Source: Scytonematopsis contorta HA4267-MV1 (GTDB taxonomy: Bacteria; Cyanobacteriota; Cyanobacteriia; Cyanobacteriales; Nostocaceae). Taken from it: DNA of 64,000 nt. Below are positions 33,218-64,000 of the stretch, one piece after another. Each line of letters begins with the position of its first letter. The stretch's first letter is position 1. The stretch covers positions 94,146-158,145 of the forward strand of contig JAHHIC010000051.1 of assembly GCA_019359035.1 (NCBI GenBank), written 5' to 3'. The notes under the pieces were generated by a model that worked only from the letters and a program-made list of their open reading frames with translations, was not told the DNA's origin and made no database searches. The translations under genes and the position numbers were made by a program.

Positions 33218-33291
33218 TGGTAAAAGTATAGGAATCGAACCTATTACCAATCGGTTAACTGCCGACCGCTCTTCCAGTGAGCTAACTTTTT
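33218..33291 (-). tRNA. tRNA-Asn(GUU)-like gene. It has an unusual all-A/U acceptor stem and may be a pseudogene.
   Basis: Reverse-complement read: acceptor AAAAAGT, D-arm GCTC-ACTGGAA-GAGC, anticodon arm GTCGG-CAGTTAA-CCGAT with anticodon GTT, T-arm ATAGG-TTCGATT-CCTAT, then ACTTTTA-CCA. The 1:72 pair is A/A. Confidence 0.5.
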
Positions 33292-33292
33292 T

Positions 33293-33365
33293 TGGTGTAT
33301 GATGAAGGACTCGAACCTTCGTCCAGCCGATTTTTCGGATGCTCTGCCAACTGAGCTAATCACAC
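33293..33365 (-). ncRNA. Anticodon-less tRNA-like element with alanine-type acceptor features (G3:U70, A73, encoded CCA)
   Basis: Reverse-complement read: acceptor GTGTGAT/ATCATAC including a G3:U70 wobble; D-arm GCTC-AGTTGGCA-GAGC; T-arm GAAGG-TTCGAGT-CCTTC; then A-CCA. The anticodon arm is replaced by a 15-nt segment with a short CCGA-AAAA-TCGG hairpin. Confidence 0.45.
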
Positions 33366-53661: not shown

Positions 53662-54315
53662 TTACATCTCTTGTGATATAGAAGTAAACATATCCTTTGC
53701 GATTCTACCGCAATTATGAACAAAAGCACTATCAAATCCGGCTCCCACAGCACCTCCCGCGAATGGAACCAACTTCATTAAATTGATAATACCTTTCTCA
53801 CCAGTCTTAGTAATTAATCTAAAGCCAACCGTTTTATTAATTTCGATTAAAATTTTTCTCGGAATTTTGCTAATGAGAGACTTAGTAACTTGATTTCCTA
53901 TCTGGACACCCGCAGTTCTAACTACTTCCAATCCAGAGTCACCCAATAATGTTAGAATTACAAAAGTGCGAACCTGTTCACATTTTATATCATAGCCTCT
54001 TAATACTGCTATGGTAGCAGCAGTATTAGCTGCCAATGTATAAGATGAAGCTAAACCAACAGGAATAGAAATTGGTAACGTTGCTAAACCACCTAATCCA
54101 GTCACAAATCCCGTACCAGCAGCATAAGCAGTGTTCCATGCAATTATTGAATTTATTGCTTTTTCCTTATCATATCCACATGACTTCAAATGGTCTTCTG
54201 CAATCTTCTCTGCCGAAGACAGAACTCCAAATCCGTTAATTCCCACAGCAACTATCCAATCTAAAAGAACTTTTGCTGGGTCGTTATTATTCCCAATGTT
54301 TGAGTTTATAGTCAT
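53662..54315 (-). CDS. EcsC-family protein
   Basis: The core IAWNTAYAAGTGFVTGLGGLATLPISIPVGLASSYTLAANTAATIAVLRGY resembles the EcsC family. Confidence 0.5.
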   Translation of the reverse strand: MTINSNIGNNNDPAKVLLDWIVAVGINGFGVLSSAEKIAEDHLKSCGYDKEKAINSIIAWNTAYAAGTGFVTGLGGLATLPISIPVGLASSYTLAANTAATIAVLRGYDIKCEQVRTFVILTLLGDSGLEVVRTAGVQIGNQVTKSLISKIPRKILIEINKTVGFRLITKTGEKGIINLMKLVPFAGGAVGAGFDSAFVHNCGRIAKDMFTSISQEM

Positions 54316-54420
54316 GACTATGCTTATTTTTATTAACTTGAATTTATTATTCCCGGATTTAAACTAAAACTCTCTATAGCAATCCTAAATCATTTGTTTG
54401 TAAAAAATCATAATAGAAAG

Positions 54421-54955
54421 TGTAGTGCGGGCATCTTGCCCGCTTCCTGTACACAAATTACCGCGCTTCCTATACACAAATTACCGCTTCCTATATACAA
54501 ATTACCGCGCTTCCTATACACAAATTACCGCTTCCTATACACAAATTACAGCGCTTCCTGTACACAAATGACAGCGTTTCCTGTACACAAATGACAGCGT
54601 TTCCTGTACACAAATTACAGCGCTTCCTGTACACAAATTACAGCGTTTCCTGTACACAAATTACAGCGTTTCCTGTACACAAATTACAGCGTTTCCTGTA
54701 CACAAATTACAGCGCTTCCTGTACACAAATTACAGCGTTTCCTGTACACAAATTACAGCGCTTCCTGTACAGAAATTACCGCTTCCTGTACAGAAATTAC
54801 CGCTTCCTGTACAGAAATTACCGCGCTTCCTGTACAGAAATTACCGCGCTTCCTGTACAGAAATTACCGCTTCCTGTACAGAAATTACCGCTTCCTGTAC
54901 AGAAATTACCGCGTTTCCTGTACAGAAATTACCGCGCTTCCTGTACAGAAATTAA
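54421..54955. repeat. Minisatellite of about 24 tandem 21-23-nt units (GCGCTTCCTGTACACAAATTACA variants). It is seeded by a GTAGTGCGGGCATCTTGCCCGCTTCC hairpin element.
   Basis: Read directly. The units differ by single substitutions (T/G, C/A, C/T) and a 2-nt indel. There are no unique spacers. Confidence 0.9.
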
Positions 54956-55326
54956 ATGCGGAGCTATCGGAACATTTTAAATCTCACCGATGTAGAGAAA
55001 GGCTTCTCAACCTTTGTTTTCTTGTCCTCCTTTTCCAATATTCTTTAATAATGGTATAGTTCCTCAAACATGGACTACTTATGTAGATTTAGTCAGCGTT
55101 AATCCGGGAAATTTTCAGAATCCAATTCAGTTATCTGTAGGTAAATCCCTCATAAATATGAATATGAATATTAGTACATTAGTTGTGAAATAATCAAATA
55201 ATTAAAAATGATTTGATATCTTCATCCCAGAACAAAAACCCTCTTAAAACTTCTCCCCTTATAGGCTACAATGTACATACAAGTTGAAGTCAAGGTATTT
55301 ACTCAGACTTGTGTGTACACGGTAGA

Positions 55327-56268
55327 CTACCGAAGGACAGAACCAGCAGGACATTGAACCTTTTCTGACAATTTTGTTGGTATTTTTGGTTTAGCAGGTG
55401 TAGTAGTGCTAGGATTTGCTGTTTCGCAAATAGCAGCCATAGTAAGTTTTTCTTTTTTATTGGGAACTATATACACAACTCCGGTATAGCTTTTTAATTC
55501 TGATTTTTTTGCGCTTGCTGTCATCATCACATGTTGCTTTTGATTTCCTTGAGGAAGGATGCGGTAACTATAATTTTCGGTTTCCGATTTAATACCTATT
55601 TGTAAATCTTGGATGCTACGAGCAAATTTATTATACTCAAGAAAGTATGCTTGTTGAGCGCGTAACATTGAACCCATATAGTTTGTTGCTTCCGACTGTA
55701 CAGCTCTTTTACTTTCACGAGCAGCGTTAGTAATTTGACTGTTTCGAGGTAATTTAGTTATGTTAGAAACTTTTTCCAACAACATCGAACCAACGCTAAA
55801 TTCTGTTGGTCGAGTTGCTCCGGGAGTCAAGCCCATATATTCTATTCGTATTTTACCATCCGGTGTCATTTCCAATATTGTCTTGATATTTTCTTTATCA
55901 GAACCCAATAAGATATCTAACTGCATGGGTTTGGTACTAGTATTGATTTTGTAAGCAACTTCATAGAACATCGGTTTTTCAATAGAACTTCCTCCTCCTC
56001 CTCCAAACACACCACTAAACCAAGGTGAAGCTGAAAAAACGTATAATTTTCCTTCTGGTGTAAAGACTGCTGAGAAGTTATAAGGGAAAAAATCTTTTAA
56101 AGCCCATTGTCCGACCAACTCCGGTACTTCCCTAATGGTAGTTTCAGCAGCATTATCAGATGTTAGAGGTTTAGTACTATTTTGCGCCAGTACTGCAACG
56201 CTTAAAAACTGTGATAAGCCCAAGCAAAGGCTTGCAGTTAAAATATTTGACAGTAGCGAATGAAACAT
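55327..56268 (-). CDS. secreted protein with a C-terminal type IV pilin-like G/H-family domain
   Basis: A signal peptide is present. The C-terminal GSMLRAQQAYFLEYNKFARSIQDLQIGIKSETENYSY matches the cyanobacterial pilin-like G/H family pattern. Confidence 0.55.
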   Translation of the reverse strand: MFHSLLSNILTASLCLGLSQFLSVAVLAQNSTKPLTSDNAAETTIREVPELVGQWALKDFFPYNFSAVFTPEGKLYVFSASPWFSGVFGGGGGSSIEKPMFYEVAYKINTSTKPMQLDILLGSDKENIKTILEMTPDGKIRIEYMGLTPGATRPTEFSVGSMLLEKVSNITKLPRNSQITNAARESKRAVQSEATNYMGSMLRAQQAYFLEYNKFARSIQDLQIGIKSETENYSYRILPQGNQKQHVMMTASAKKSELKSYTGVVYIVPNKKEKLTMAAICETANPSTTTPAKPKIPTKLSEKVQCPAGSVLR

Positions 56269-56544
56269 TGAAGTCAGTTAAAACACGGCACATCGATTTT
56301 AACCTCATTTTTTTTAATTGCCATATTCAACCCCATCCCAGGGCTATATCATATCTTGTACGAACGTGATAATACTTTATTTATGAATTTTTATGACACG
56401 GTGTAGGTGATTTAGATACAGCAAATTTCAAGTTAGTGAAATATAACGATATCCATATTTGGAAGAAATAGTATTTATAAATATCTTTACACGTTCTTCA
56501 ACCTCATCATTAAAAAGAGTATGGCAGTAACCAAGTATTATTTA

Positions 56545-56871
56545 TTATCCAGTTAGAGGCTCCTCTCTTCCAACACCAAGTTCAATCAATTTAGACTTAA
56601 CATCTTGAGTCGTATTACCACAATAGTAGTAATTTTTACTCATTAAATCAACAAGATATAAACCTTCTTTACCACCATTGATTTTCAGTAATTCTCTTGC
56701 AACTTCACACATACTTGTACTATATGCAGCGAACAAATCATCTAATGATAATCGTGGTAAATTTAAGGGATTATAAAATGATTCACCTATAATAAAATGC
56801 CACTTAGTACTTTCTCGACGAACAACGCGGTAATATACAGGCGCAACAATAGAAATATCTAAATTATTCAT
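56545..56871 (-). CDS. hypothetical protein
   Basis: The 108-aa ORF has a clean ATG and no motif. Confidence 0.45.
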   Translation of the reverse strand: MNNLDISIVAPVYYRVVRRESTKWHFIIGESFYNPLNLPRLSLDDLFAAYSTSMCEVARELLKINGGKEGLYLVDLMSKNYYYCGNTTQDVKSKLIELGVGREEPLTG

Positions 56872-57478
56872 ATTAGTGTTTTAGAATAGGGTAAGAAGCA
56901 TCCCCTTAGAGCTATAGGGACTGCATGTAACTAGCTGCTAACTAGTTCTTATGTTCGCTATCGGGAGGGTCTAATTTGTTTTCTAGCTCCTCCCTTGCGG
57001 TTTCATCATCGATAACATTTGATTCACCTGTCATAACATTTTGGCGCTCCCACAAATTGCGAAACAACCGCAATAATACAACAATGGGTTCAAATATTTT
57101 TCGATTACCATTTCCATTATTACTCAGTTTTGTACCTCCTTTTTTAATCAATTATGCGTAAAGAATTTACATTCTTTACAATTTATATTATAACCCTATT
57201 GAGCATATTTTTAGCCGATACAAAATAATTAATAATAACCAATTAAAAGTTATGATTTAATTCAACAATGTCAATTAATAATTACTATATCAGTATAATT
57301 AAAATGATGACAGAACTGTTCAAACGAGTGAGGGTATTCCTCATTTGTAAAGGAGTAATTACTTTGCTTACGTAAATCAAAAATTTTTGTAACCGTATTA
57401 AAAACATTTCAAGAGAAAAAAAATCATAGAAAAGGCTACAGAAATATATCGCTATTAGTCGCAAGTTCCACAATGGCT

Positions 57479-60433
57479 TTAAGAATTCCAGACTTGATAA
57501 AAATCTAAATAAGTCATATTTTCCGCACAATGCCACAGTAATTTATAACAAAATCCAAGAGTTTCCGTGACATCATTATTTACTTCATTCTCAAAAAAAT
57601 CTCTTAAAGATATAATTACTTCTCGTAGCTGTTCAACAAGTAAAACTTCTTTTAAATTATCAGATGCGCGTTTGCGAAGTGATTTATCGGGAGATGATTT
57701 AACAATATTTAATAAAGTGTAAAAAGCCACAGAGTTTCCTGGGTCAATTTGGGCTAATTTATAAGCTTTGTTTCGACGTGTAGAGTCATCTTTAGCGAAC
57801 TCAATTCCCTTGAGTAAAGAAGAAATTTTTTGAGCTTTTAATAGTGCTGAATAAGTTTTATAAGTATTTTGTTTCGGTACAGATGTTTTGAACTTAAAAG
57901 CAGACAAATTAGAATTAGATGCAGCGGATGTCATACCGCGTAAAGTCACCAAATTATCGACTACGATTCTTTTCAAAGATGCATCGGTTGCAATTTCTGC
58001 TATTTTCTCTAATGTTGAGATTGCTAACTGGTTGCTCGTATCGATTTTCCCTAAACTATAGGCTACTTTTCGTTGTATGGATAAGTTTTTAGTTGACTTT
58101 ATAATTTCAACTAATGCAGTAACTGCTGCTTCGTTAAGAGGGTCTACTCTACCTAGATAGTGTGCTATTTGCCAACGAAAATTTTCTTGACGAGCGGTTT
58201 TTAGAATTTTTTCTAGTACTGAAATAGCAACTTGATTCTGCGGGTCAAATGATTTTCCTAAACTATAAGCTGCGTTCCAAATGTAAAATTCGTTTTCGCT
58301 TGATTGAATGAATTCTTCTAAAGCGACAATTGCTTTTGTGCGTTCGGTTTTTAGCAAAGCTACTCGCGCACTTTCGACAATTGAAACTGGATAATTGTAC
58401 CACTTATGTATTTTTTTATCAAAATAACCAAATCGCCATTTAATTAATTGTCGCACAATTACATCCGCGTTGCGACAATCGGTAAACTCGGCAATTCCTA
58501 GCGCGGCTAAAAAATAAGCTTGATATTGGTAATAACCACCACACCCGTCTTGAAAATTAATTAGCGCTTGAATAAATTCTTCCTTTTGTACTTGTGGTAT
58601 ATCATCCCTACCTAACCAGAGTAAAATTACTTCTCGCCACTGGGGTTCAAAAATACGATAAATCCCTTGAGTACAGTCATCCAGGTTATAGTGTAAAAAA
58701 TATTGCCAATCCGGAATTGCTTGTGCAGCAAAATACTCTTGAAATGTGGGATGATAAAATGCATAAACTTTTTCTCCCAGAGTTTCGGAGATACCTATTT
58801 GATTTAACCATCCAAGCTGAAGCGCTAATTGGAAAAAACCGTTATCTGGCTCACCCAAAACTTCGCAAACAAATCGATGTCTCAGACGAAATTTTGTTTT
58901 TTCCTGGGCAATTGCGAGTAAAGCCAATTCACTGAGTGCGGTATTTAGCTGTTTTCGTTGCGCGTATGTTGTTGGGAAACGGTCTTGTTTCCACTCATAA
59001 ATAGCCTCAACAAACTGCTCATAAAGCATTGCTTTGGTGTTAGGAAAACTACCTTGAGTTAATCCCCAAGTACGACATAACAGCGCTAAACGTAAGGGAT
59101 TTTTGACTGCATCCTTAATTCGTCCTCTTCCACCCTTGTCTAATTCGGTACGCAGTTTTTCTCCTAACTGTGGATTATTCTTAAACCAACGACAGATAAA
59201 TTCCCCTACTAAATCACCAGACTTTTGTAAGGTTCTGTGTGACGTGCCGTAAGAAAAACTCAGGTTACGATATGTATCAAAATTTTCTAGCGCGTTCTTT
59301 CCTGCATCCCATACGTTCAAGCGACAGGTAAGGATTATAGTGGCGTCTGCTACCCAACCTTTGAGGAAAGTCGCAAGCATTGATAGGGCTTTGGTTGACT
59401 CTATTGTCATTTCATCCACCGCGTCTAGCAGCAACCACACTCGTCCTTGGTTAAATAAAGTGGTAAATTCCATTTCCATTTCTGGAGAAATCTGTGGTTT
59501 ACGGGTAGCATTTTTTAGCCAATCTTGAATTAGGTATTCTTCTAGAGTTTTACCCTGCAAATCAGCCAAAGAGACCCAAATCGGTAGACCAGAGGTTTTT
59601 TCTAATATTCCTGCAGCAATTCTTTGCAACAGGGTAGTTTTTCCTGCACCTGGTTCTCCCAAAATAGCGAGACGTTTACTTTGTTGTTGTAACACTTGTT
59701 GGAGAAATTCATCGTTAGCAAAAGTTTGTGTTGATTCCACATCTTCAGGTTCGTACAAACGCGAACCCTCGTAGGGTGCGAAATCATTATGACGACGCTC
59801 TCTTCCTTTACGTTCTACTAAACCTAGAGGTACGTAAACCTCATCTAACTCAAAAGTTACCCCATCCATACTAGTCAGAGGGTTAGTGGTTAGTCGTTTA
59901 TGATGTTGCGCTTCTAGAGTATCGCGGCAGATGTTTTGCCATTCGGTTTGCAATTCCACATCGGGAATAGCCTCGGACTTTATAGCTTGGGACTTTAATA
60001 CTTGGGGGGAGGGGGATAATTTTGAGCTATGACGCTGTTCCCATTCTTGGTCAAATTTTTGTAGGTTGGCAAGTTGGTCATTGCGATCGCACCAAAGTTT
60101 TAGGGTAAAGTGCCAAGTTTCCGAGCCGCTGCGTGTGGGACGGTTATCTTCAAGAATTTCTAAATAATCCGCAAATCGTTTGAGTGCTTCTTTAATTTGT
60201 TCGGCGTTAAGTGGGTTGTTGGGGACGATTGTTGCTGTGAGCGTTGACAAATAACGCACTTTGGTTCGGACAACTAGTTTATTTTCTGTGTGCCAACGAG
60301 TTTGTATATGAGGACGCAAAGCATCAATAAGGGCTTCATCACAGTCTAACTCGTCATTGGCATAAGCCAACAACGCCTCAAATAAAAGGCGTGCTCGCTT
60401 TTTTGCTTGTTGACCGTAACTTGCTCTTGCCAT
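57479..60433 (-). CDS. NACHT-family STAND NTPase with an N-terminal helical domain and C-terminal HEAT repeats
   Basis: The P-loop reads ILGEPGAGKTTLL and Walker B reads VWLLLDAVDE. The C-terminal 350 aa contain repeated ...AAYSLGKI/AHYLGRV... HEAT-like units. Confidence 0.85.
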   Translation of the reverse strand: MARASYGQQAKKRARLLFEALLAYANDELDCDEALIDALRPHIQTRWHTENKLVVRTKVRYLSTLTATIVPNNPLNAEQIKEALKRFADYLEILEDNRPTRSGSETWHFTLKLWCDRNDQLANLQKFDQEWEQRHSSKLSPSPQVLKSQAIKSEAIPDVELQTEWQNICRDTLEAQHHKRLTTNPLTSMDGVTFELDEVYVPLGLVERKGRERRHNDFAPYEGSRLYEPEDVESTQTFANDEFLQQVLQQQSKRLAILGEPGAGKTTLLQRIAAGILEKTSGLPIWVSLADLQGKTLEEYLIQDWLKNATRKPQISPEMEMEFTTLFNQGRVWLLLDAVDEMTIESTKALSMLATFLKGWVADATIILTCRLNVWDAGKNALENFDTYRNLSFSYGTSHRTLQKSGDLVGEFICRWFKNNPQLGEKLRTELDKGGRGRIKDAVKNPLRLALLCRTWGLTQGSFPNTKAMLYEQFVEAIYEWKQDRFPTTYAQRKQLNTALSELALLAIAQEKTKFRLRHRFVCEVLGEPDNGFFQLALQLGWLNQIGISETLGEKVYAFYHPTFQEYFAAQAIPDWQYFLHYNLDDCTQGIYRIFEPQWREVILLWLGRDDIPQVQKEEFIQALINFQDGCGGYYQYQAYFLAALGIAEFTDCRNADVIVRQLIKWRFGYFDKKIHKWYNYPVSIVESARVALLKTERTKAIVALEEFIQSSENEFYIWNAAYSLGKSFDPQNQVAISVLEKILKTARQENFRWQIAHYLGRVDPLNEAAVTALVEIIKSTKNLSIQRKVAYSLGKIDTSNQLAISTLEKIAEIATDASLKRIVVDNLVTLRGMTSAASNSNLSAFKFKTSVPKQNTYKTYSALLKAQKISSLLKGIEFAKDDSTRRNKAYKLAQIDPGNSVAFYTLLNIVKSSPDKSLRKRASDNLKEVLLVEQLREVIISLRDFFENEVNNDVTETLGFCYKLLWHCAENMTYLDFYQVWNS

Positions 60434-60683
60434 TTTGGTTGTGAGGCCAATGCAATAAAGTGGGGGGATTCCCCTAAGTTTAACAACTTCCCCTAGGTTA
60501 TATGCCTTATTTTACAAAGTTTTCGACGGCTGAGCGTCTTTGTGGCTTGGGGGAATATCCCCTGAGTATCCTGTATTTATCGAAGGTGATTCGCGGGACT
60601 ATGGCACAACTTCCGTTCCAGTCTGTTAACTGTCAAACCCAGTTGTACCGACATTCCCCGAATAACCTTCCCTCCCGTGGGTC

Positions 60684-60712
60684 TGTAGAGACGCGATTAA
60701 TCGCGTCTCTAC
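60684..60712. repeat. Hairpin-family element TGTAGAGACGCGATTAATCGCGTCTCTAC
   Basis: Fourth copy of the palindrome family. Confidence 0.85.
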
Positions 60713-60744
60713 CGCGTGGTGGGCTGAATATAAAATTTACTTCT

Positions 60745-61125
60745 ATATTTATTATGTTGAAACTTACTTATTTGGATAATGGTTTTAATTTAGAATATCT
60801 TCACGAATCTTTAGAAAATTGGCTCAATACTAGAGTAATGCTTGCTTTGCATTCTTGTACAAATATTTATGTTGAGAATATTACTGCTTCTTTTTTAGTT
60901 AAAGCTTCCACTATTCCTTTAAGTGATTTAATTAATCTGAAACTAGAGACAAATATTGTTGAATTATGCCCCTGTGATGCTGATTTTCTAGAAGTTACTT
61001 TCAAAGGTGTTTGGTTGACTTCTAATTTAGATAAAAATTCTGGTGTTTTTGTGACAGGACTTAGTAATTATGCTGAAGTCATTTTCTCGAAATTAAACGA
61101 TAATAAACAATTCTGTTATAAATAA
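60745..61125 (+). CDS. small hypothetical protein. The start is set at the internal ATG, MLKLTYLDNG...
   Basis: The tracked ORF begins inside the palindromic repeat. The internal Met gives a 126-aa AT-rich ORF. Confidence 0.4.
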   Translation: MFIMLKLTYLDNGFNLEYLHESLENWLNTRVMLALHSCTNIYVENITASFLVKASTIPLSDLINLKLETNIVELCPCDADFLEVTFKGVWLTSNLDKNSGVFVTGLSNYAEVIFSKLNDNKQFCYK

Positions 61126-61214
61126 GAACCTAACCCCTAACCCCTTTCCTATGAGGGAAGGGGAATAAGAAAATAGTAGTTTGAAAAAAGTAATAAGTAA
61201 AAATTTAAAATTAT

Positions 61215-62663
61215 ATGTCTGTTCATTTAGAAGTCCGTGCTGCACAAGTAGCGCAGGAAGATTTAGTTATGTTTATTAATGCCTGCTATTCTTGTAGTGG
61301 ACAGCGGGAATTTTATGATGATGCCTATGGTCAACGGGTATCTATTGACTTTTTGCATGATTATATTTTGGGTAATTATCGCTTGCTATATGCTCGTACT
61401 TTAGCTACAGGTATTAATCATTTTAACCAAGCACAAATTATTTTGAAACTTTTGGCAACTGGAAAAAATACAATTTCAGAACATCGTCAAGAAGAAGGTG
61501 CTTTAATTACCGCTGCTCTTAATGCATTACCCCCACAACGCGCATGGGGTGTTTTGCAAGAACTACAACAACGTAAAATTAATAATCGTCGTACAAGGGC
61601 AATAGCTCGCGATTATCTTGCTACTCGTCGTGATATCAACTTTGATGCGGTGAAATATCGCTCTAAAGTTAAGGCGATAATATCTCATGCACACCTCAAA
61701 TTATATGGTGAACTTCCTAATTTTCTTTTTGACTTCGCTAAACAAAAATCTTACACCACACAACTTTTTGAACAATTTCGCAAAGCGCAATATAGCAGCG
61801 ACGCTATTTATAACTTGCCCTTTACTATCGCCGAAGGGTTTGCCACGAAACACAAGATTAAGCGTGAGGTATTTTTAGAACGCATCCAAAAACAAATGAC
61901 TTTGGGCGAAAAATTACGTTATCAAGGTGCAAGCGAACGCGCTGATGTGGATATTAATCTCGATTTTGGTCGTCTCCCCCTAACTAAATTAGCATTGTAT
62001 TTTCTTTCTCTACCCCAACAAACTAAAAAAGAACAATGGGATACCTTTAACCGTGCATTAGAAAAAGCTGCATATTTAACATTAAAAAAAGCACCACTTC
62101 AACTTGGTCGAGTTGCCGCTGTTCTCGATTGTAGTTACTCTAGCTCTGGTTCCAGCGAAAAACGTCGTCGTCCTTTAGGTGTCGCTCTTGCTACTCATTA
62201 CCTATTAAGAGCCGCAGCTAAAGACTACCGCGCTTTTTGGACAGTGAGTGTAGAAGATGCTTTGTTAATTCAGCCACGAGGGCAAACTGACCTGGCTACA
62301 CCATTGCTAGCAGCACTAAGCTCTGGCGCGGAAACAGTAATAATTATATCCGACGGTTGCGAAAATGACCCACCGAACGGAGCAGCAGAAGTTTTGCGGG
62401 TATATCGTACCAAACTTGAGCGTCTACGTAAAACCTCGATTATCCACTGTAACCCAGTTTTCAATGCAAATAGTTACTCTTTACGTACCATAAGTCCTTA
62501 TACTCCCACAATTGGACTGCGAGACGCGGAAGATTTGCCCACAATGCTGGGTTTTGCAAGTCTAGCTGAAGGTTCCTTAACTTTATCTGAACTGGAAGCG
62601 TATTTACAACAAAGAGTCGAACAATTTTTAACTCACCAAAGCGCAACTCAATACTACTCGTAG
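61215..62663 (+). CDS. vWA-domain protein with a large helical N-terminal domain. Ro60/TROVE-like is one hypothesis.
   Basis: The C-terminal vWA has a MIDAS D-x-S-x-S motif (AAVLDCSYSSSGS) and VIIISDGCEN. The N-terminal ~300 aa are helical and unassigned. The TROVE assignment is not verifiable without a search. Confidence 0.7.
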   Translation: MSVHLEVRAAQVAQEDLVMFINACYSCSGQREFYDDAYGQRVSIDFLHDYILGNYRLLYARTLATGINHFNQAQIILKLLATGKNTISEHRQEEGALITAALNALPPQRAWGVLQELQQRKINNRRTRAIARDYLATRRDINFDAVKYRSKVKAIISHAHLKLYGELPNFLFDFAKQKSYTTQLFEQFRKAQYSSDAIYNLPFTIAEGFATKHKIKREVFLERIQKQMTLGEKLRYQGASERADVDINLDFGRLPLTKLALYFLSLPQQTKKEQWDTFNRALEKAAYLTLKKAPLQLGRVAAVLDCSYSSSGSSEKRRRPLGVALATHYLLRAAAKDYRAFWTVSVEDALLIQPRGQTDLATPLLAALSSGAETVIIISDGCENDPPNGAAEVLRVYRTKLERLRKTSIIHCNPVFNANSYSLRTISPYTPTIGLRDAEDLPTMLGFASLAEGSLTLSELEAYLQQRVEQFLTHQSATQYYS

Positions 62664-62768
62664 GTTGGGTTGAGGAACGTTCACCGAAGGTGGAGCGGAG
62701 CGCTTAACCCAACAAACAACCAAAAAGAACCAAAAAAGTTGGGTTTCCCAAAGCCTCAACCCAACCTA
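62661..62768 (+). ncRNA. Structured intergenic RNA element with four mutually complementary segments (GTTGGGTT x2, AACCCAAC x2) and a 15-bp terminal helix
   Basis: TAGGTTGGGTTGAGG (62661-62675) pairs with CCTCAACCCAACCTA (62754-62768). Internal AACCCAAC (62706-62713) and GTTGGGTT (62738-62745) permit alternative 1:2/3:4 or 2:3 pairings. Confidence 0.4.
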
Positions 62769-62791
62769 CAAACTTCTCAGTAGTCCCCAAA

Positions 62792-63931
62792 ATGCAACTA
62801 ACTAAAATTACTTTTAAAGGTTTAGAAATAGCACCCTCCCAAGTACATGGTGCTATCCGTATTGTTCCCTTGCTACGTCGCGAAGTACGTGGTGACTTAC
62901 GCTTACTAAAACGTTCCTATGAAGAAGACTTGGCTATAGTTTCTTTAGAAAAAGACATGAAATACCTTTCTTATGTCCCCCACGGTTTAGTTATGTCTTG
63001 GACAAAAGATGGCAGTGCTGTCACAAACTTTGGTGGGGACATGATGAAATCTGACGGAAAGCGTTTAGACTGTCGGTGTGCAAGCGTTCGTTTGATGCAA
63101 CGTATGGTAAAACGTGAAGCGAAAAACGAACTGCGATTTTTACCTCTACACTTAGCAATGGAAGGTTTTCTTTCATTATATTTCAACGGGCCCAAAATCG
63201 CTTGGGAAGAATATTCTAAGTATGCTCTTTCCTACGGGTTAGGTTGTCGCTACGAAAGTTTTGTTAGTGGACGTGATATTGCTGGATTAGAAGACGCATT
63301 ACGTGTATTTGAAATTCATACTGGACAAGTGGGAGTACTTGTTTATGTTGCTGAAGCTTTAGCATCCGTATTTGTTGTTCCCACCCCAGAAGATTACCGT
63401 GCGTTACACAACAGTTTAATAGAAGACTTCTACGGCGAATTAATTTACCAATATGCTTTAACTTATAATACAACTTACCCAATCGATTGCAAAATTGATG
63501 AGTCAAGAATTAGTAATTTAGCAGATTTGCGAATTGCTGTAGATAAAATGCGTTTAAATTGGGCATCATTTCAAAGTGTGATGGCAAATGGGTTTTTAGA
63601 CAGAGAATTAAATTCTAAAACAGTTTACAACGCAAATCCTTTTACTTTACAAAGATTTATAACTAACTTAGAAGGATATAATGAAAACTATATTGGAGAA
63701 GCAATAGTCAGGGATAATGGCGAATTGGAATATTTGCATACCTATCGCTTATCGGATGCACAAACACGTCGCGCTCGCTATCTTAGCAAGTTAGAAGAAA
63801 ATAATTGGAACTTACATAAAACTGCGTCTTCTCTTTCTTACGACTACCAAGAGTTTGTGCAAAGGATGGAGAAAGAAGGCTTTGGGTATTTGTTTAAACA
63901 ACAAGTCAGAGATAAAGCACGCAAACGATAA
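62792..63931 (+). CDS. hypothetical protein (unknown family)
   Basis: The 379-aa ORF has an ATG and balanced composition. It lies directly downstream of the vWA gene and the structured element. Confidence 0.6.
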   Translation: MQLTKITFKGLEIAPSQVHGAIRIVPLLRREVRGDLRLLKRSYEEDLAIVSLEKDMKYLSYVPHGLVMSWTKDGSAVTNFGGDMMKSDGKRLDCRCASVRLMQRMVKREAKNELRFLPLHLAMEGFLSLYFNGPKIAWEEYSKYALSYGLGCRYESFVSGRDIAGLEDALRVFEIHTGQVGVLVYVAEALASVFVVPTPEDYRALHNSLIEDFYGELIYQYALTYNTTYPIDCKIDESRISNLADLRIAVDKMRLNWASFQSVMANGFLDRELNSKTVYNANPFTLQRFITNLEGYNENYIGEAIVRDNGELEYLHTYRLSDAQTRRARYLSKLEENNWNLHKTASSLSYDYQEFVQRMEKEGFGYLFKQQVRDKARKR

Positions 63932-64000
63932 GCTGATTATGAAAAGAGGAGCATCCCACATGTGTAAATTTATTGTCTTTCGTAGTGCGGGCTTCCAACC

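What the first reader, a model, noticed from the sequence alone, without database searches (positions are those of the whole stretch)
60745..63931. Uncharacterised three-gene cluster next to a NACHT gene: small ORF, vWA protein (possibly Ro60/TROVE-like), structured RNA element, 379-aa unknown protein
The protein at 61215-62663 ends in a clear vWA domain with a MIDAS DxSxS motif. It is preceded by ~300 aa of helical sequence with no ATPase motif. That layout matches a TROVE (Ro60/Rsr) module followed by vWA, but the match is not provable here. The ORF's stop codon is embedded in a 108-nt element with a 15-bp perfect terminal helix and two further GTTGGGTT/AACCCAAC pairs. These can fold either as two hairpins or as one long helix. 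That is attenuator-like, or, if the Ro60 guess is right, reminiscent of a Y-RNA stem placed next to rsr. The downstream 379-aa protein and upstream 126-aa protein have no assignable family. The cluster sits beside the NACHT-HEAT gene in a repeat-rich accessory context.
Basis: partly seen in the sequence, partly recalled or inferred. Interest (0 to 1): 0.6.

Follow-up and report, generated by a model that had tools for sequence, protein, structure and literature searches.

The report
Ro60-like gene pair with new RNA

Summary

The flagged 108-nt element is not an operon-specific RNA. It is two head-to-head copies of a dispersed cyanobacterial hairpin repeat. It is absent from orthologous loci, whose spacers range from -17 to 1995 nt.

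A real RNA lies 162 nt upstream of the finding, at 60583-60668 (+). It is an 88-nt motif with 25 base pairs, 17 of them with compensatory changes. It occurs in 1-3 copies upstream of the Ro60-like gene in 74 of 81 loci and nowhere else searched, including exactly the four of 72,556 plasmids that carry the gene. Rfam 15 has no match.

The Ro60-like/ARPP pair also occurs as a natural fusion, in a Firmicute and on phage-like contigs.

Best reading: a Ro60/Y-RNA-like module with ARPP-2 as effector. RNA-protein binding is inferred, not shown.

The parts
60583..60668 (+). Structured non-coding RNA motif, 86 nt here and 88 model positions. It is one long hairpin. P1 (9 bp) and P2 (GGGA/UCCC) form a 13-bp terminal helix joining the 5' and 3' ends, interrupted by one nearly invariant bulged C. 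An internal loop follows, then P3 (8 bp), then the conserved ACUUCCG(A/U)(A/U)C loop, then the variable P4 hairpin. It heads the operon.
   Evidence: Found by blastn/nhmmer across orthologous loci. The alignment A3 holds 92 distinct copies. RNAalifold predicts 25 pairs, 17 with compensatory changes. 96.2% of cells are paired against 84.3% in shuffles and 34-48% in slid controls; 290 double-change cells against 74; 0 of 500 shuffles reach these values. The covariance model scores 79 bits here and this is the only hit in the 64-kb window. The copy folds alone into the same shape, z = -4.2. No reading frame is conserved.
60745..61125 (+). Alr0857-family small protein (126 aa), an optional member of the operon.
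   Evidence: NCBIfam NF045647, 2.8e-38. Present in 36 of 75 loci, either before or after the RNA. Not related to EAD4 (hhalign probability 0.2%).
61215..62663 (+). Divergent Ro60-like protein (482 aa): a helical TROVE-fold domain (about residues 1-292) plus a vWA domain with a complete MIDAS site.
62127..62141 (+). MIDAS motif D305-C-S307-Y-S309 of the vWA domain.
   Evidence: Invariant in 38 homologs, as is D380; T362 is nearly invariant. Compare D322/S324/T391/D416 of phage phiLo Ro60 (PMC12135203).
62660..62769 (.). Two head-to-head copies of a dispersed cyanobacterial hairpin repeat (unit GTAGGTTGGGTTGAGG-N-AACCCAAC), inserted in the intergenic spacer. This is a passenger, not a conserved part of the system.
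   Evidence: 114 of 134 occurrences of the 16-mer elsewhere carry the AACCCAAC partner, against 2.6% of random windows. None of the 120 metagenome loci encodes relatives of the cluster's proteins.
62792..63931 (+). ARPP-2 protein (379 aa), the obligate partner of the Ro60-like protein and the predicted effector or enzyme.
   Evidence: PF22549, 5e-116. Immediately downstream in 76 of 80 orthologous loci. Natural fusion P0143. The pairing is kept at 25% protein identity and in a Firmicute.
57479..60433 (-). Divergently transcribed EAD4-NACHT-HEAT-NCC-H STAND NTPase. It is a neighbour in a subset of Nostocales only, and a functional link is not established.
   Evidence: Pfam. Adjacent in about 19 of 80 loci. 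No EAD4-bearing partner in flanking genes.

Best explanation
The window carries a conserved cyanobacterial operon: [88-nt structured RNA] - (Alr0857-family protein, optional) - divergent Ro60-like TROVE/vWA protein - ARPP-2.

Shown:
- The RNA is real, is under selection for its secondary structure on the sense strand, and is exclusively linked to the Ro60-like gene.
- The protein has the Ro60 fold with an intact MIDAS site.
- ARPP-2 is its evolutionarily obligate partner: adjacency across phyla and a natural fusion.

Inferred: the system works like a Ro60/Y-RNA ribonucleoprotein.
- The RNA is made as the 5' end of the operon transcript.
- It is bound by the Ro60-like ring through its 13-bp terminal helix with the bulged C.
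- Because the RNA ends only 12-40 nt before the start codon, this binding probably feeds back on translation.
- It may also build an RNP in which the RNA and/or the vWA MIDAS site recruits or gates ARPP-2.
- ARPP-2 is a predicted enzyme acting on ribose/ADP-ribose-type moieties (Iyer et al. 2022), so the target would be damaged or modified RNA during stress or phage attack.

The 108-nt hairpin between the two genes is an inserted repeat. At most it has a generic REP-like effect on mRNA stability.
For: Fold.

MIDAS conservation.

RNA structure and covariation.

RNA specificity:
- One hit in the window.
- No hits in 639 kb of unrelated cyanobacteria-rich loci and none in viral contigs.
- 97 strong + strand hits in 74 of 81 orthologous loci, all upstream of the gene.
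- A blind hit ending 12 nt upstream of a 44%-identical ortholog that was not in the training set, with compensated P1 and P3.
- Among 72,556 plasmids the RNA is in exactly the 4 that carry the gene.
- The RNA stays with the Ro60-like gene in the two loci where ARPP-2 is not adjacent, L020 and L074.

Placement:
- Same strand, 1-3 tandem copies, median 37 nt to the next start codon.
- -10-like hexamers are enriched ending 5-11 nt upstream of P1.

Precedent:
- Bacterial and phage Y RNAs are encoded within 4 kb of the Ro60 gene on the same strand, often in several copies (PMC4201824; PMC12135203).
- Ro60 binds a terminal helix with a single bulged cytidine (PMC4726728).

ARPP-2 partnership. ARPP biochemical prediction: PMC9503650.
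Against: - There are no binding or expression data of any kind.
- The protein fails Pfam TROVE and a profile search against PDB sequences.
- The RNA matches no Rfam Y RNA family. It lacks the tRNA-like module and the GNCGAA motif of YrlA; CGAA is present in only some of the copies.
- Its position 12-40 nt from the start codon, and tandem spacings as short as 21 nt, fit a purely cis-acting leader or riboswitch equally well.
- Distant Ro60-like/ARPP pairs (L246, L247, Alkaliphilus) have no detectable copy of this RNA.
- The Aravind group reads the vWA proteins of ARPP-containing systems as peptide-binding chaperones.
- The ARPP-2 structure could not be modelled (pLDDT 49), so its activity is unknown.
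Confidence: 0.5

Rival explanations
1. The 88-nt RNA is a riboswitch or other cis-regulatory leader. It would sense a small molecule (for example an ADP-ribose or nucleotide derivative) or an unrelated factor and control the operon. It is not a ligand of the Ro60-like protein.
For: - The RNA sits in the 5' leader, commonly 12-29 nt from the start codon of whichever gene comes first.
- Loop nucleotides are invariant while the stems covary, as in aptamers.
- Tandem copies can be only 21-29 nt apart, which suggests co-transcription.
- -10-like boxes lie just upstream.
Against: - No intrinsic terminator or obvious expression platform follows it in the window.
- The RNA tracks a gene whose product has the fold of an RNA-binding protein that is typically encoded next to its own RNA ligand.
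- In 36 loci the RNA precedes the Ro60-like gene but follows alr0857, or the reverse, at variable distances of up to several hundred nt.
Confidence: 0.3
2. One reading: the 108-nt hairpin at 62661-62768 is a functional, operon-specific RNA. It would be either an attenuator between the vWA gene and the downstream gene or a Y-RNA-like stem.
For: - It is very stable: -47.9 kcal/mol, z = -6.4.
- It has alternative pairings.
- It overlaps the stop codon.
- One distant locus (L077, Microcoleus) has the same repeat in the equivalent spacer.
Against: - It is not conserved. Spacers range from -17 to 1995 nt, 20 of 77 are 9 nt or shorter, and PCC 7120 has a different palindrome there.
- The same unit occurs in at least 120 unrelated contigs with none of these genes, often as head-to-head pairs.
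- There is no + strand U-tract terminator.
- There is no Rfam match beyond a chance hairpin hit.
Confidence: 0.03
3. The vWA protein is a Mg2+-dependent peptide-binding chaperone that serves ARPP-2 in a protein-directed (ADP-ribosylation-related) conflict system, as proposed for the vWA components of ARG-centred systems. It has no RNA-binding role.
For: - Iyer et al. 2022 interpret vWA proteins next to ARPP in this way.
- The MIDAS site is invariant.
- One distant relative sits near PARP and NUDIX genes.
Against: - The whole-protein fold, not only the vWA domain, matches Ro60.
- Many invariant Arg/Lys residues lie in the helical domain: R56, R61, R109, R125, R126, R128, K147, R149, K151, R189.
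- A dedicated structured RNA co-occurs with the gene.
- No ARG, rhodanese-phosphatase, Nudix or WYL genes are present in the cyanobacterial loci.
Confidence: 0.12
4. The three genes are effector or accessory genes of the neighbouring EAD4-NACHT STAND NTPase and together form one defence island.
For: - The arrangement is divergent, with a conserved intergenic region, in about 19 of 80 loci plus PCC 7120.
- EAD4 domains are proposed to recruit effectors encoded nearby (PMC7159879).
Against: - Most loci (about 60 of 80), including all non-Nostocales ones, lack the NACHT gene.
- None of the three proteins, nor the genes flanking the NACHT gene, carries EAD4.
- There are no PADLOC hits for the three proteins beyond one weak REase match.
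Confidence: 0.05

Closest known systems
Ro60 (Rsr) / Y RNA ribonucleoproteins of bacteria and phages (D. radiodurans Rsr-Y RNA-PNPase; Salmonella rsr-yrlBA-rtcBA; Thermus phage phiLo Ro60-Yrl1/2)
   Same: - The protein has the Ro60 architecture: a helical TROVE ring plus a vWA domain with MIDAS.
- A structured RNA of about 90 nt, whose 5' and 3' ends form a long helix with a single bulged C, is encoded next to the gene on the same strand, often in 2-3 copies.
- A dedicated partner enzyme is associated (ARPP-2 here, PNPase or RtcB there).
   Different: - There is no sequence-level TROVE match.
- The RNA has no Rfam Y_RNA/YrlA match, no tRNA-like domain and no conserved GNCGAA.
- The RNA sits in the leader 12-40 nt from the start codon.
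- The partner is ARPP-2 and is genomically obligate, even fused in one case. PNPase, by contrast, is recruited in trans.
- Binding is untested.
ARG-centred, ARPP-containing conflict systems (Iyer, Burroughs, Anantharaman, Aravind 2022, PMC9503650)
   Same: An ARPP-superfamily protein is coupled to a vWA protein. One distant relative lies near PARP, NUDIX and RNA-ligase genes.
   Different: - The cyanobacterial loci have no ARG, rhodanese-phosphatase, Nudix-HTH or WYL-HTH genes.
- The partner is ARPP-2 rather than ARPP-1.
- The vWA protein is a full Ro60-like ring.
- A dedicated structured RNA is present.
- This two-gene context is not among the three extra ARPP neighbourhoods listed in that paper (HIRAN, WYL, deacetylase).
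Autoregulatory protein-binding mRNA leaders and riboswitches
   Same: A covarying, loop-conserved structure in the 5' leader immediately upstream of the regulated ORF, sometimes in tandem.
   Different: No recognisable expression platform; the ligand is unknown; the downstream product is itself an RNA-binding-fold protein.
REP/BIME-type dispersed palindromic repeats (for the 62660-62769 hairpin only)
   Same: A short hairpin unit dispersed in intergenic DNA of many genomes and often paired head-to-head. It is inserted between co-directional genes.
   Different: This is a cyanobacterial sequence family (GTAGGTTGGGTTGAGG..AACCCAAC) for which I found no published name. A mobility mechanism was not examined.

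Membership tests
Ro60/TROVE (Rsr) proteins | Helical HEAT-like TROVE ring closed by a vWA domain (whole-protein fold) | tested here: met
Ro60/TROVE (Rsr) proteins | Sequence match to Pfam TROVE (PF05731) | tested here: not met
   No hit at E <= 1 for the window protein. None among 38 family members at E <= 10; only PF25045 'Ro60 vWA domain' appears below threshold, in 5 of 38 members, best E 0.036. A profile search against PDB sequences found no Ro60.
Ro60/TROVE (Rsr) proteins | MIDAS metal site in the vWA domain | tested here: met
   D305, S307, S309 and D380 are invariant and T362 is nearly invariant.
Ro60/TROVE (Rsr) proteins | Binds Y RNA on the outer surface and single-stranded RNA ends in the central cavity | not testable with these tools
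   Only indirect evidence: many invariant basic residues in the helical domain and a co-occurring RNA.
Y RNA / YrlA | 80-130 nt, with the 5' and 3' ends forming a long stem around internal loops | tested here: met
   88 positions. P1+P2 form a 13-bp terminal helix, supported by covariation in 8 of the 9 P1 pairs.
Y RNA / YrlA | Encoded within about 4 kb of the Ro60 gene on the same strand | tested here: met
   All 97 strong hits are + strand and upstream of the Ro60-like gene. 4 of 4 plasmids.
Y RNA / YrlA | Conserved Ro60-binding lower stem: a helix with a single bulged C plus a 3-nt bulge on the opposite strand, with conserved sequence | tested here: inconclusive
   A nearly invariant single bulged C lies between P1 and P2. 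There is no opposite 3-nt bulge and no similarity to the vertebrate Y RNA sequence. Feature definition taken from PMC4726728.
Y RNA / YrlA | Match to Rfam Y RNA-type covariance models; tRNA-like module and GNCGAA motif (YrlA) | tested here: not met
   The Rfam E <= 1 scan of 56000-64000 covers the RNA and gives no such hit. No family reaches its gathering score in 125 kb of orthologous loci. CGAA is present in only some of the copies.
ARPP-2 (Pfam PF22549) | HMM score above the gathering threshold | tested here: met
   387.1 bits against a cut-off of 27, covering model positions 2-277 of 278.
Alr0857 family (NCBIfam NF045647) | HMM score above the curated cut-off | tested here: met
   130.7 bits against a cut-off of 75.
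ARG-centred ADP-ribose counter-defence systems | ARG (ADP-ribosylglycohydrolase) core gene, usually with a rhodanese-phosphatase and a Nudix or WYL transcription factor | tested here: not met
   None is present among the called genes of the PCC 7120 loci. In the window, only the ORFs from 53662 to 63931 were scanned with Pfam, and none is an ARG, phosphatase, Nudix or WYL protein.
Intrinsic terminator / attenuator (for 62660-62769) | GC-rich hairpin followed by a U-tract on the sense strand, conserved in orthologs | tested here: not met
   No + strand terminator-like site at this position. The element is absent from orthologous spacers.
Dispersed palindromic repeats (for 62660-62769) | Many copies in unrelated genomic contexts, often as inverted pairs | tested here: met
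114 of 134 copies have the hairpin partner, against 2.6% by chance. None lies near relatives of the cluster's proteins. Copies elsewhere in L029, L032, L077 and L080.
EAD-coupled STAND (NACHT) conflict systems | A second copy of the same EAD (EAD4) on an adjacent effector protein | tested here: not met
   No EAD4 in the three operon proteins or in the genes flanking the NACHT gene. Alr0857 against EAD4: hhalign probability 0.2%.

The most novel reading that the evidence does not exclude
The 88-nt RNA is a new class of Y-like RNA. Together with a deeply divergent Ro60 ring it forms an RNP that scaffolds or gates ARPP-2, an uncharacterised enzyme, to process damaged or ADP-ribose-modified RNA. 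This would be a previously unrecognised RNP-based RNA-surveillance or anti-phage module. It would be widespread in filamentous cyanobacteria, with its protein core shared with Firmicutes and phage-like genomes.
Probability: 0.3. Interest if true: 0.85.

Novelty: new variant of a known kind. Interest (0 to 1): 0.72.

Why it matters
Ro60 is a major human autoantigen, and how it works with Y RNAs and partner enzymes is still debated. Bacterial systems have supplied most of the mechanistic insight.

This locus offers three things:
- A Ro60-fold family that sequence searches miss.
- An obligate and sometimes fused partner, ARPP-2, which has no known biochemistry.
- A well-supported RNA motif (92 distinct copies with strong covariation) that I could not find in Rfam 15 or in the literature I could search.

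Together they make a compact three-component system in a genetically tractable model, Nostoc PCC 7120 (BAB73829-73831). Direct tests could show what ARPP proteins do and whether pairing of Ro60-type rings with a dedicated RNA is more general than currently recognised.

The work also shows that the eye-catching hairpin is a repeat. That is a useful caution for sequence-only scans of repeat-rich cyanobacterial genomes.

Tried and rejected
- The 108-nt hairpin as a conserved RNA: rejected.
- Pfam, NCBIfam, PADLOC and PDB-sequence searches of the 482-aa protein: no hit. Only fold searches worked.
- ARPP-2 structure: the AlphaFold2 model was too poor (pLDDT 48.8), so no fold search was run. The ARPP-2 profile against PDB sequences found nothing.
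- Alr0857 as a solo EAD4 adaptor for the NACHT protein: rejected (BLASTP E 0.52, hhalign probability 0.2%).
- EAD4 partner on the other side of the NACHT gene: none.
- Known Y RNA/YrlA near orthologous or distant loci: none. Only tRNAs on one phage-like contig.
- Coding explanation for the 88-nt element: rejected. 34 of 92 copies have stops in all three frames and lengths vary from 86 to 92 nt.
- Viral contigs: no relatives of the protein. The 42 pattern matches to the RNA core are chance; the best covariance-model score is 18 bits.
- The R1 RNA upstream of distant Ro60-like/ARPP pairs (L246, L247, Alkaliphilus): absent.
- Literature:
  - No paper found for ARPP-2/PF22549 or for my guessed PCC 7120 locus tags.
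  - No TROVE/Ro60/ARPP mention in the 202-genome cyanobacterial RNA-structure survey.
  - No entry at the PCC 7120 coordinates in the held part of the 2016 sRNA catalogue, whose table was cut when stored.
  - No published name found for the dispersed repeat.
- The afdb50 fold library was unavailable.


Full report
**1. The observation**

The three co-directional ORFs exist as described: 60745-61125, 61215-62663 and 62792-63931. The 482-aa protein has D305-C-S307-Y-S309 at nt 62127-62141. In an alignment of 38 homologs at 62-79% identity, these five residues and D380 are invariant, and T362 is nearly invariant. That makes a complete MIDAS site. The intergenic hairpin has perfect 16-nt arms (62660-62675 / 62754-62769) that include the TAG stop codon. 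It holds four GTTGGGTT/AACCCAAC octamers and folds at -47.9 kcal/mol, z = -6.4. The neighbouring minus-strand gene (57479-60433) is an EAD4-NACHT-HEAT-NCC-H STAND NTPase. The ARPP-2 protein is 100% identical to a protein of the MAG *Scytonematopsis contorta* HA4267-MV1, so the window is Nostocales DNA.

**2. The proteins**

The claim that two of the proteins have no family is wrong. The 379-aa protein is a full-length ARPP-2 (PF22549, 5e-116). The 126-aa protein is an alr0857-family protein (NF045647, 2.8e-38).

The 482-aa protein has no hit in Pfam, NCBIfam or PADLOC. A family profile also finds nothing in PDB sequences. Its AlphaFold2 model is good (pLDDT 80.4, pTM 0.77) and fold searches are consistent:
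- Foldseek against the PDB returns six Ro60/TROVE entries first, all aligned over the full length: Xenopus and human Ro60, *D. radiodurans* Rsr, and Thermus phage phiLo Ro60. E-values run from 1e-5 to 5e-4, and the next hit is above 0.02.
- The viral BFVD library is topped by a 'Ro-like RNA binding protein' and by TROVE proteins.
- UniRef already labels some orthologs 'TROVE domain-containing'.
- At sequence level, only a sub-threshold echo of PF25045 'Ro60 vWA domain' appears, in 5 of 38 members.

The family is a deeply divergent sister of canonical Rsr, not a member by Pfam criteria.

**3. Gene neighbourhood**

Among 80 orthologous loci from different cyanobacterial species, ARPP-2 lies immediately downstream in 76. 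Two of the four exceptions are contig ends. Alr0857 is present in 34 of the 80. The NACHT gene is present in about 19, all Nostocales.

The Ro60-like/ARPP link extends well beyond local synteny:
- One representative protein (P0143, 828 aa) is a natural fusion of the two.
- Relatives only about 25% identical still sit next to ARPP-1/2 genes, in either gene order. One is on a phage-like contig with several tRNAs. Another lies near PARP, NUDIX and RNA-ligase genes.
- A plasmid of the Firmicute *Alkaliphilus* has the same pair, with ARPP-1.

The core of the system is therefore the two-gene pair. Alr0857 is optional. The NACHT gene is a lineage-restricted neighbour. I found no EAD4 partner for it on either side, and Alr0857 is unrelated to EAD4.

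**4. The flagged hairpin**

The spacer between the two genes ranges from -17 to 1995 nt (median 98). In 20 of 77 loci it is 9 nt or shorter, which leaves no room for an RNA element. PCC 7120 has a different palindrome there. *Nostoc edaphicum* pNe_3 even has xisH/xisI inserted at this point.

The hairpin's arms are a dispersed repeat:
- The 16-mer GTAGGTTGGGTTGAGG occurs in at least 120 metagenome contigs.
- 114 of its 134 occurrences are followed by AACCCAAC, against 2.6% of random windows.
- The canonical unit is GTAGGTTGGGTTGAGGNACGAAACCCAAC, frequently as head-to-head pairs.
- None of those contigs encodes relatives of the cluster's proteins.
- Copies also lie at other positions in L029, L032 and L080, and in tandem in L077.

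The window element is two such units head-to-head. That explains both the long helix and the alternative two-hairpin fold. It has no sense-strand U-tract terminator and only a chance miRNA-hairpin hit in Rfam. It is a passenger repeat.

**5. A real RNA, upstream of the finding**

A search for conserved non-coding sequence around the cluster showed that part of the NACHT/alr0857 intergenic region is conserved in dozens of loci, always just upstream of the Ro60-like gene. Iterated nhmmer found 102 copies in 77 sources, all on the gene's strand.

Evidence for structure, from an alignment of 92 distinct copies:
- The consensus has 25 base pairs, 17 of them with compensatory double changes.
- 96.2% of cells are paired, against 84.3% in shuffles and 34-48% when partners are slid.
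- There are 290 double-change cells against 74 expected.
- The covariation score is 0.441 against 0.212. For these three measures no shuffle out of 500 reaches the observed value.

Shape of the RNA:
- It is one long hairpin.
- P1 (9 bp) and P2 (invariant GGGA/UCCC) form a 13-bp terminal helix that joins the 5' and 3' ends.
- That helix is interrupted by one nearly invariant bulged C.
- An internal loop follows, then P3 (8 bp), then the conserved ACUUCCG(A/U)(A/U)C stretch, then a variable P4 hairpin.
- The window copy (60583-60668) adopts this fold on its own, at -27.7 kcal/mol, z = -4.2.
- It is non-coding. 34 of 92 copies have stops in all three frames and lengths vary from 86 to 92 nt.
- Conserved G-U pairs, and reverse-strand model scores of about 26 bits against about 100, show that the sense strand is the selected one.

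**6. Specificity of the RNA**

A covariance model built from the alignment gives these results:
- One hit in the 64-kb window (79 bits).
- No hits in 639 kb of unrelated, cyanobacteria-rich loci, and none in viral contigs.
- 97 strong hits in 74 of 81 orthologous loci, all sense-strand and upstream of the gene.
- A full-length hit (36 bits, E about 2e-6) ending 12 nt upstream of a 44%-identical ortholog from a low-GC organism. That locus was chosen only by protein homology and was not in the training set. Its P1 and P3 are fully compensated.
- Among 72,556 plasmids (7.3 Gb), blastn finds the RNA in exactly four records. These are exactly the four Nostoc plasmids that carry the gene, and in each the RNA lies 27-220 nt upstream on the same strand.
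- Where ARPP-2 is not adjacent (L020, L074), the RNA stays with the Ro60-like gene.

Gene orders across 75 loci are RV 38, ARRV 20, ARV 12, RAV 3 (the window's type), RRV 1 and ARRRV 1, where R is the RNA, A is alr0857 and V is the Ro60-like gene. The RNA's 3' end is a median of 37 nt, commonly 12-29 nt, from the next start codon. Tandem copies are 21-230 nt apart. TAnnnT hexamers, often preceded by TGn, are about 3-fold enriched ending 5-11 nt upstream of P1. This suggests that transcription starts at the foot of the helix.

Rfam 15 has no matching family. I found no mention of the motif in the literature I could search.

**7. Interpretation**

Bacterial and phage Ro60 genes are typically flanked, on the same strand and within 4 kb, by one or more Y RNAs. 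These are 80-130 nt, and their paired 5'/3' ends carry the Ro60-binding site (PMC4201824; PMC12135203). In vertebrates that site is a helix with a single bulged cytidine (PMC4726728).

The 88-nt RNA shares several of these features: its size, the terminal helix, the bulged C, and its adjacency, strand and multiplicity. It fails others. There is no Rfam Y RNA match, no tRNA-like module and no conserved GNCGAA. I therefore do not file it as a Y RNA.

The most economical model is that it is the cognate RNA of the Ro60-like protein. It could act as an autoregulatory leader, as a Y-like scaffold, or as both. ARPP-2 would be the effector recruited through the RNA or through the MIDAS site. ARPP-2 is predicted only in silico, as an enzyme acting on ribose/ADP-ribose-type moieties (PMC9503650).

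The main rival is a riboswitch or other leader that does not depend on the protein. The leader position fits that equally well. Everything about binding and biochemistry is inference. The existence of the RNA, its structure and its exclusive linkage to the gene are shown.

**8. Verdict**

- Following the evidence outside the given coordinates revealed an apparently undescribed structured RNA family tied to a cryptic Ro60-like/ARPP-2 module.
- I rate it a new variant of a known kind (a Ro60/Y-RNA-type system), with interest 0.72.

Noticed in passing
window 60685-60712: GTAGAGACGCGATTAATCGCGTCTCTAC is a perfect 14+14 palindrome lying between the 88-nt RNA and alr0857. It is a second dispersed cyanobacterial repeat, with copies at unrelated positions in L008, L023, L027, L051 and L079.
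   Followed up: partly
window 61127-61170: CCTAACCCCTAACCCCTTTCCTATGAGGGAAGGGG, in the alr0857/Ro60-like spacer, is a third dispersed hairpin repeat. Copies lie far from the operon in L003 (15341), L008, L054 and L056.
   Followed up: partly
window 54394-54980: Mechanical ORFs made of tandem peptide repeats (..ITAFPVHKLQRFLYTNYS..), that is, arrays of short tandem DNA repeats typical of heterocystous cyanobacteria.
   Followed up: no
window 60453-60525: A second conserved block of the NACHT/alr0857 intergenic region, adjacent to the NACHT start codon in NACHT-bearing loci (for example L003 7005-7047). It is probably the NACHT promoter or 5' UTR.
   Followed up: no
L250 6484-7223 (Nostoc edaphicum plasmid pNe_3): xisH and xisI genes are inserted between the Ro60-like gene and ARPP-2. 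The spacer is a hot spot for insertions, and this explains the 800-1000-nt spacers in several Nostoc loci.
   Followed up: partly
L246 (ENA k141_43134, 153 kb) and L247 (JGI Ga0373628_0000021, 262 kb): Distant Ro60-like/ARPP-1 pairs sit in phage-like or giant-virus-like contexts. L246 has at least five strong and two borderline tRNA hits plus PTH2. L247 has PARP, NUDIX and RNA-ligase genes. The weak tRNA-like hits upstream of the pair in L246 (2530-2605, 2832-2891) could be tRNA-like Y RNA modules.
   Followed up: partly
L249 3914-4743 (Alkaliphilus sp. B6464 plasmid pB6464): An 829-nt AT-rich non-coding stretch lies between a TerD gene and the distant Ro60-like/ARPP-1 pair. It has no Rfam match and was not analysed for new RNAs.
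   Followed up: partly
window 33220-33365 (-): Two adjacent tRNA genes, the only Rfam matches in the window that reach a gathering score.
   Followed up: no
window 55327-56268 (-) and 53662-54315 (-): A Pilin_GH-domain protein (5e-39) and an EcsC-family protein (1e-11) lie beyond the NACHT gene. They are unrelated to the cluster.
   Followed up: no
L003 7568-7655 and 7724-7811, and equivalents in about 20 loci: Where the RNA is duplicated, the two copies belong to two distinct, separately conserved subtypes. The first has CCGAAC...CCUAGCUAG. The second has CCGUUC...UAACCUAG, with an extra GUU/AAC pairing. This suggests an ancient duplication with specialisation.
   Followed up: partly
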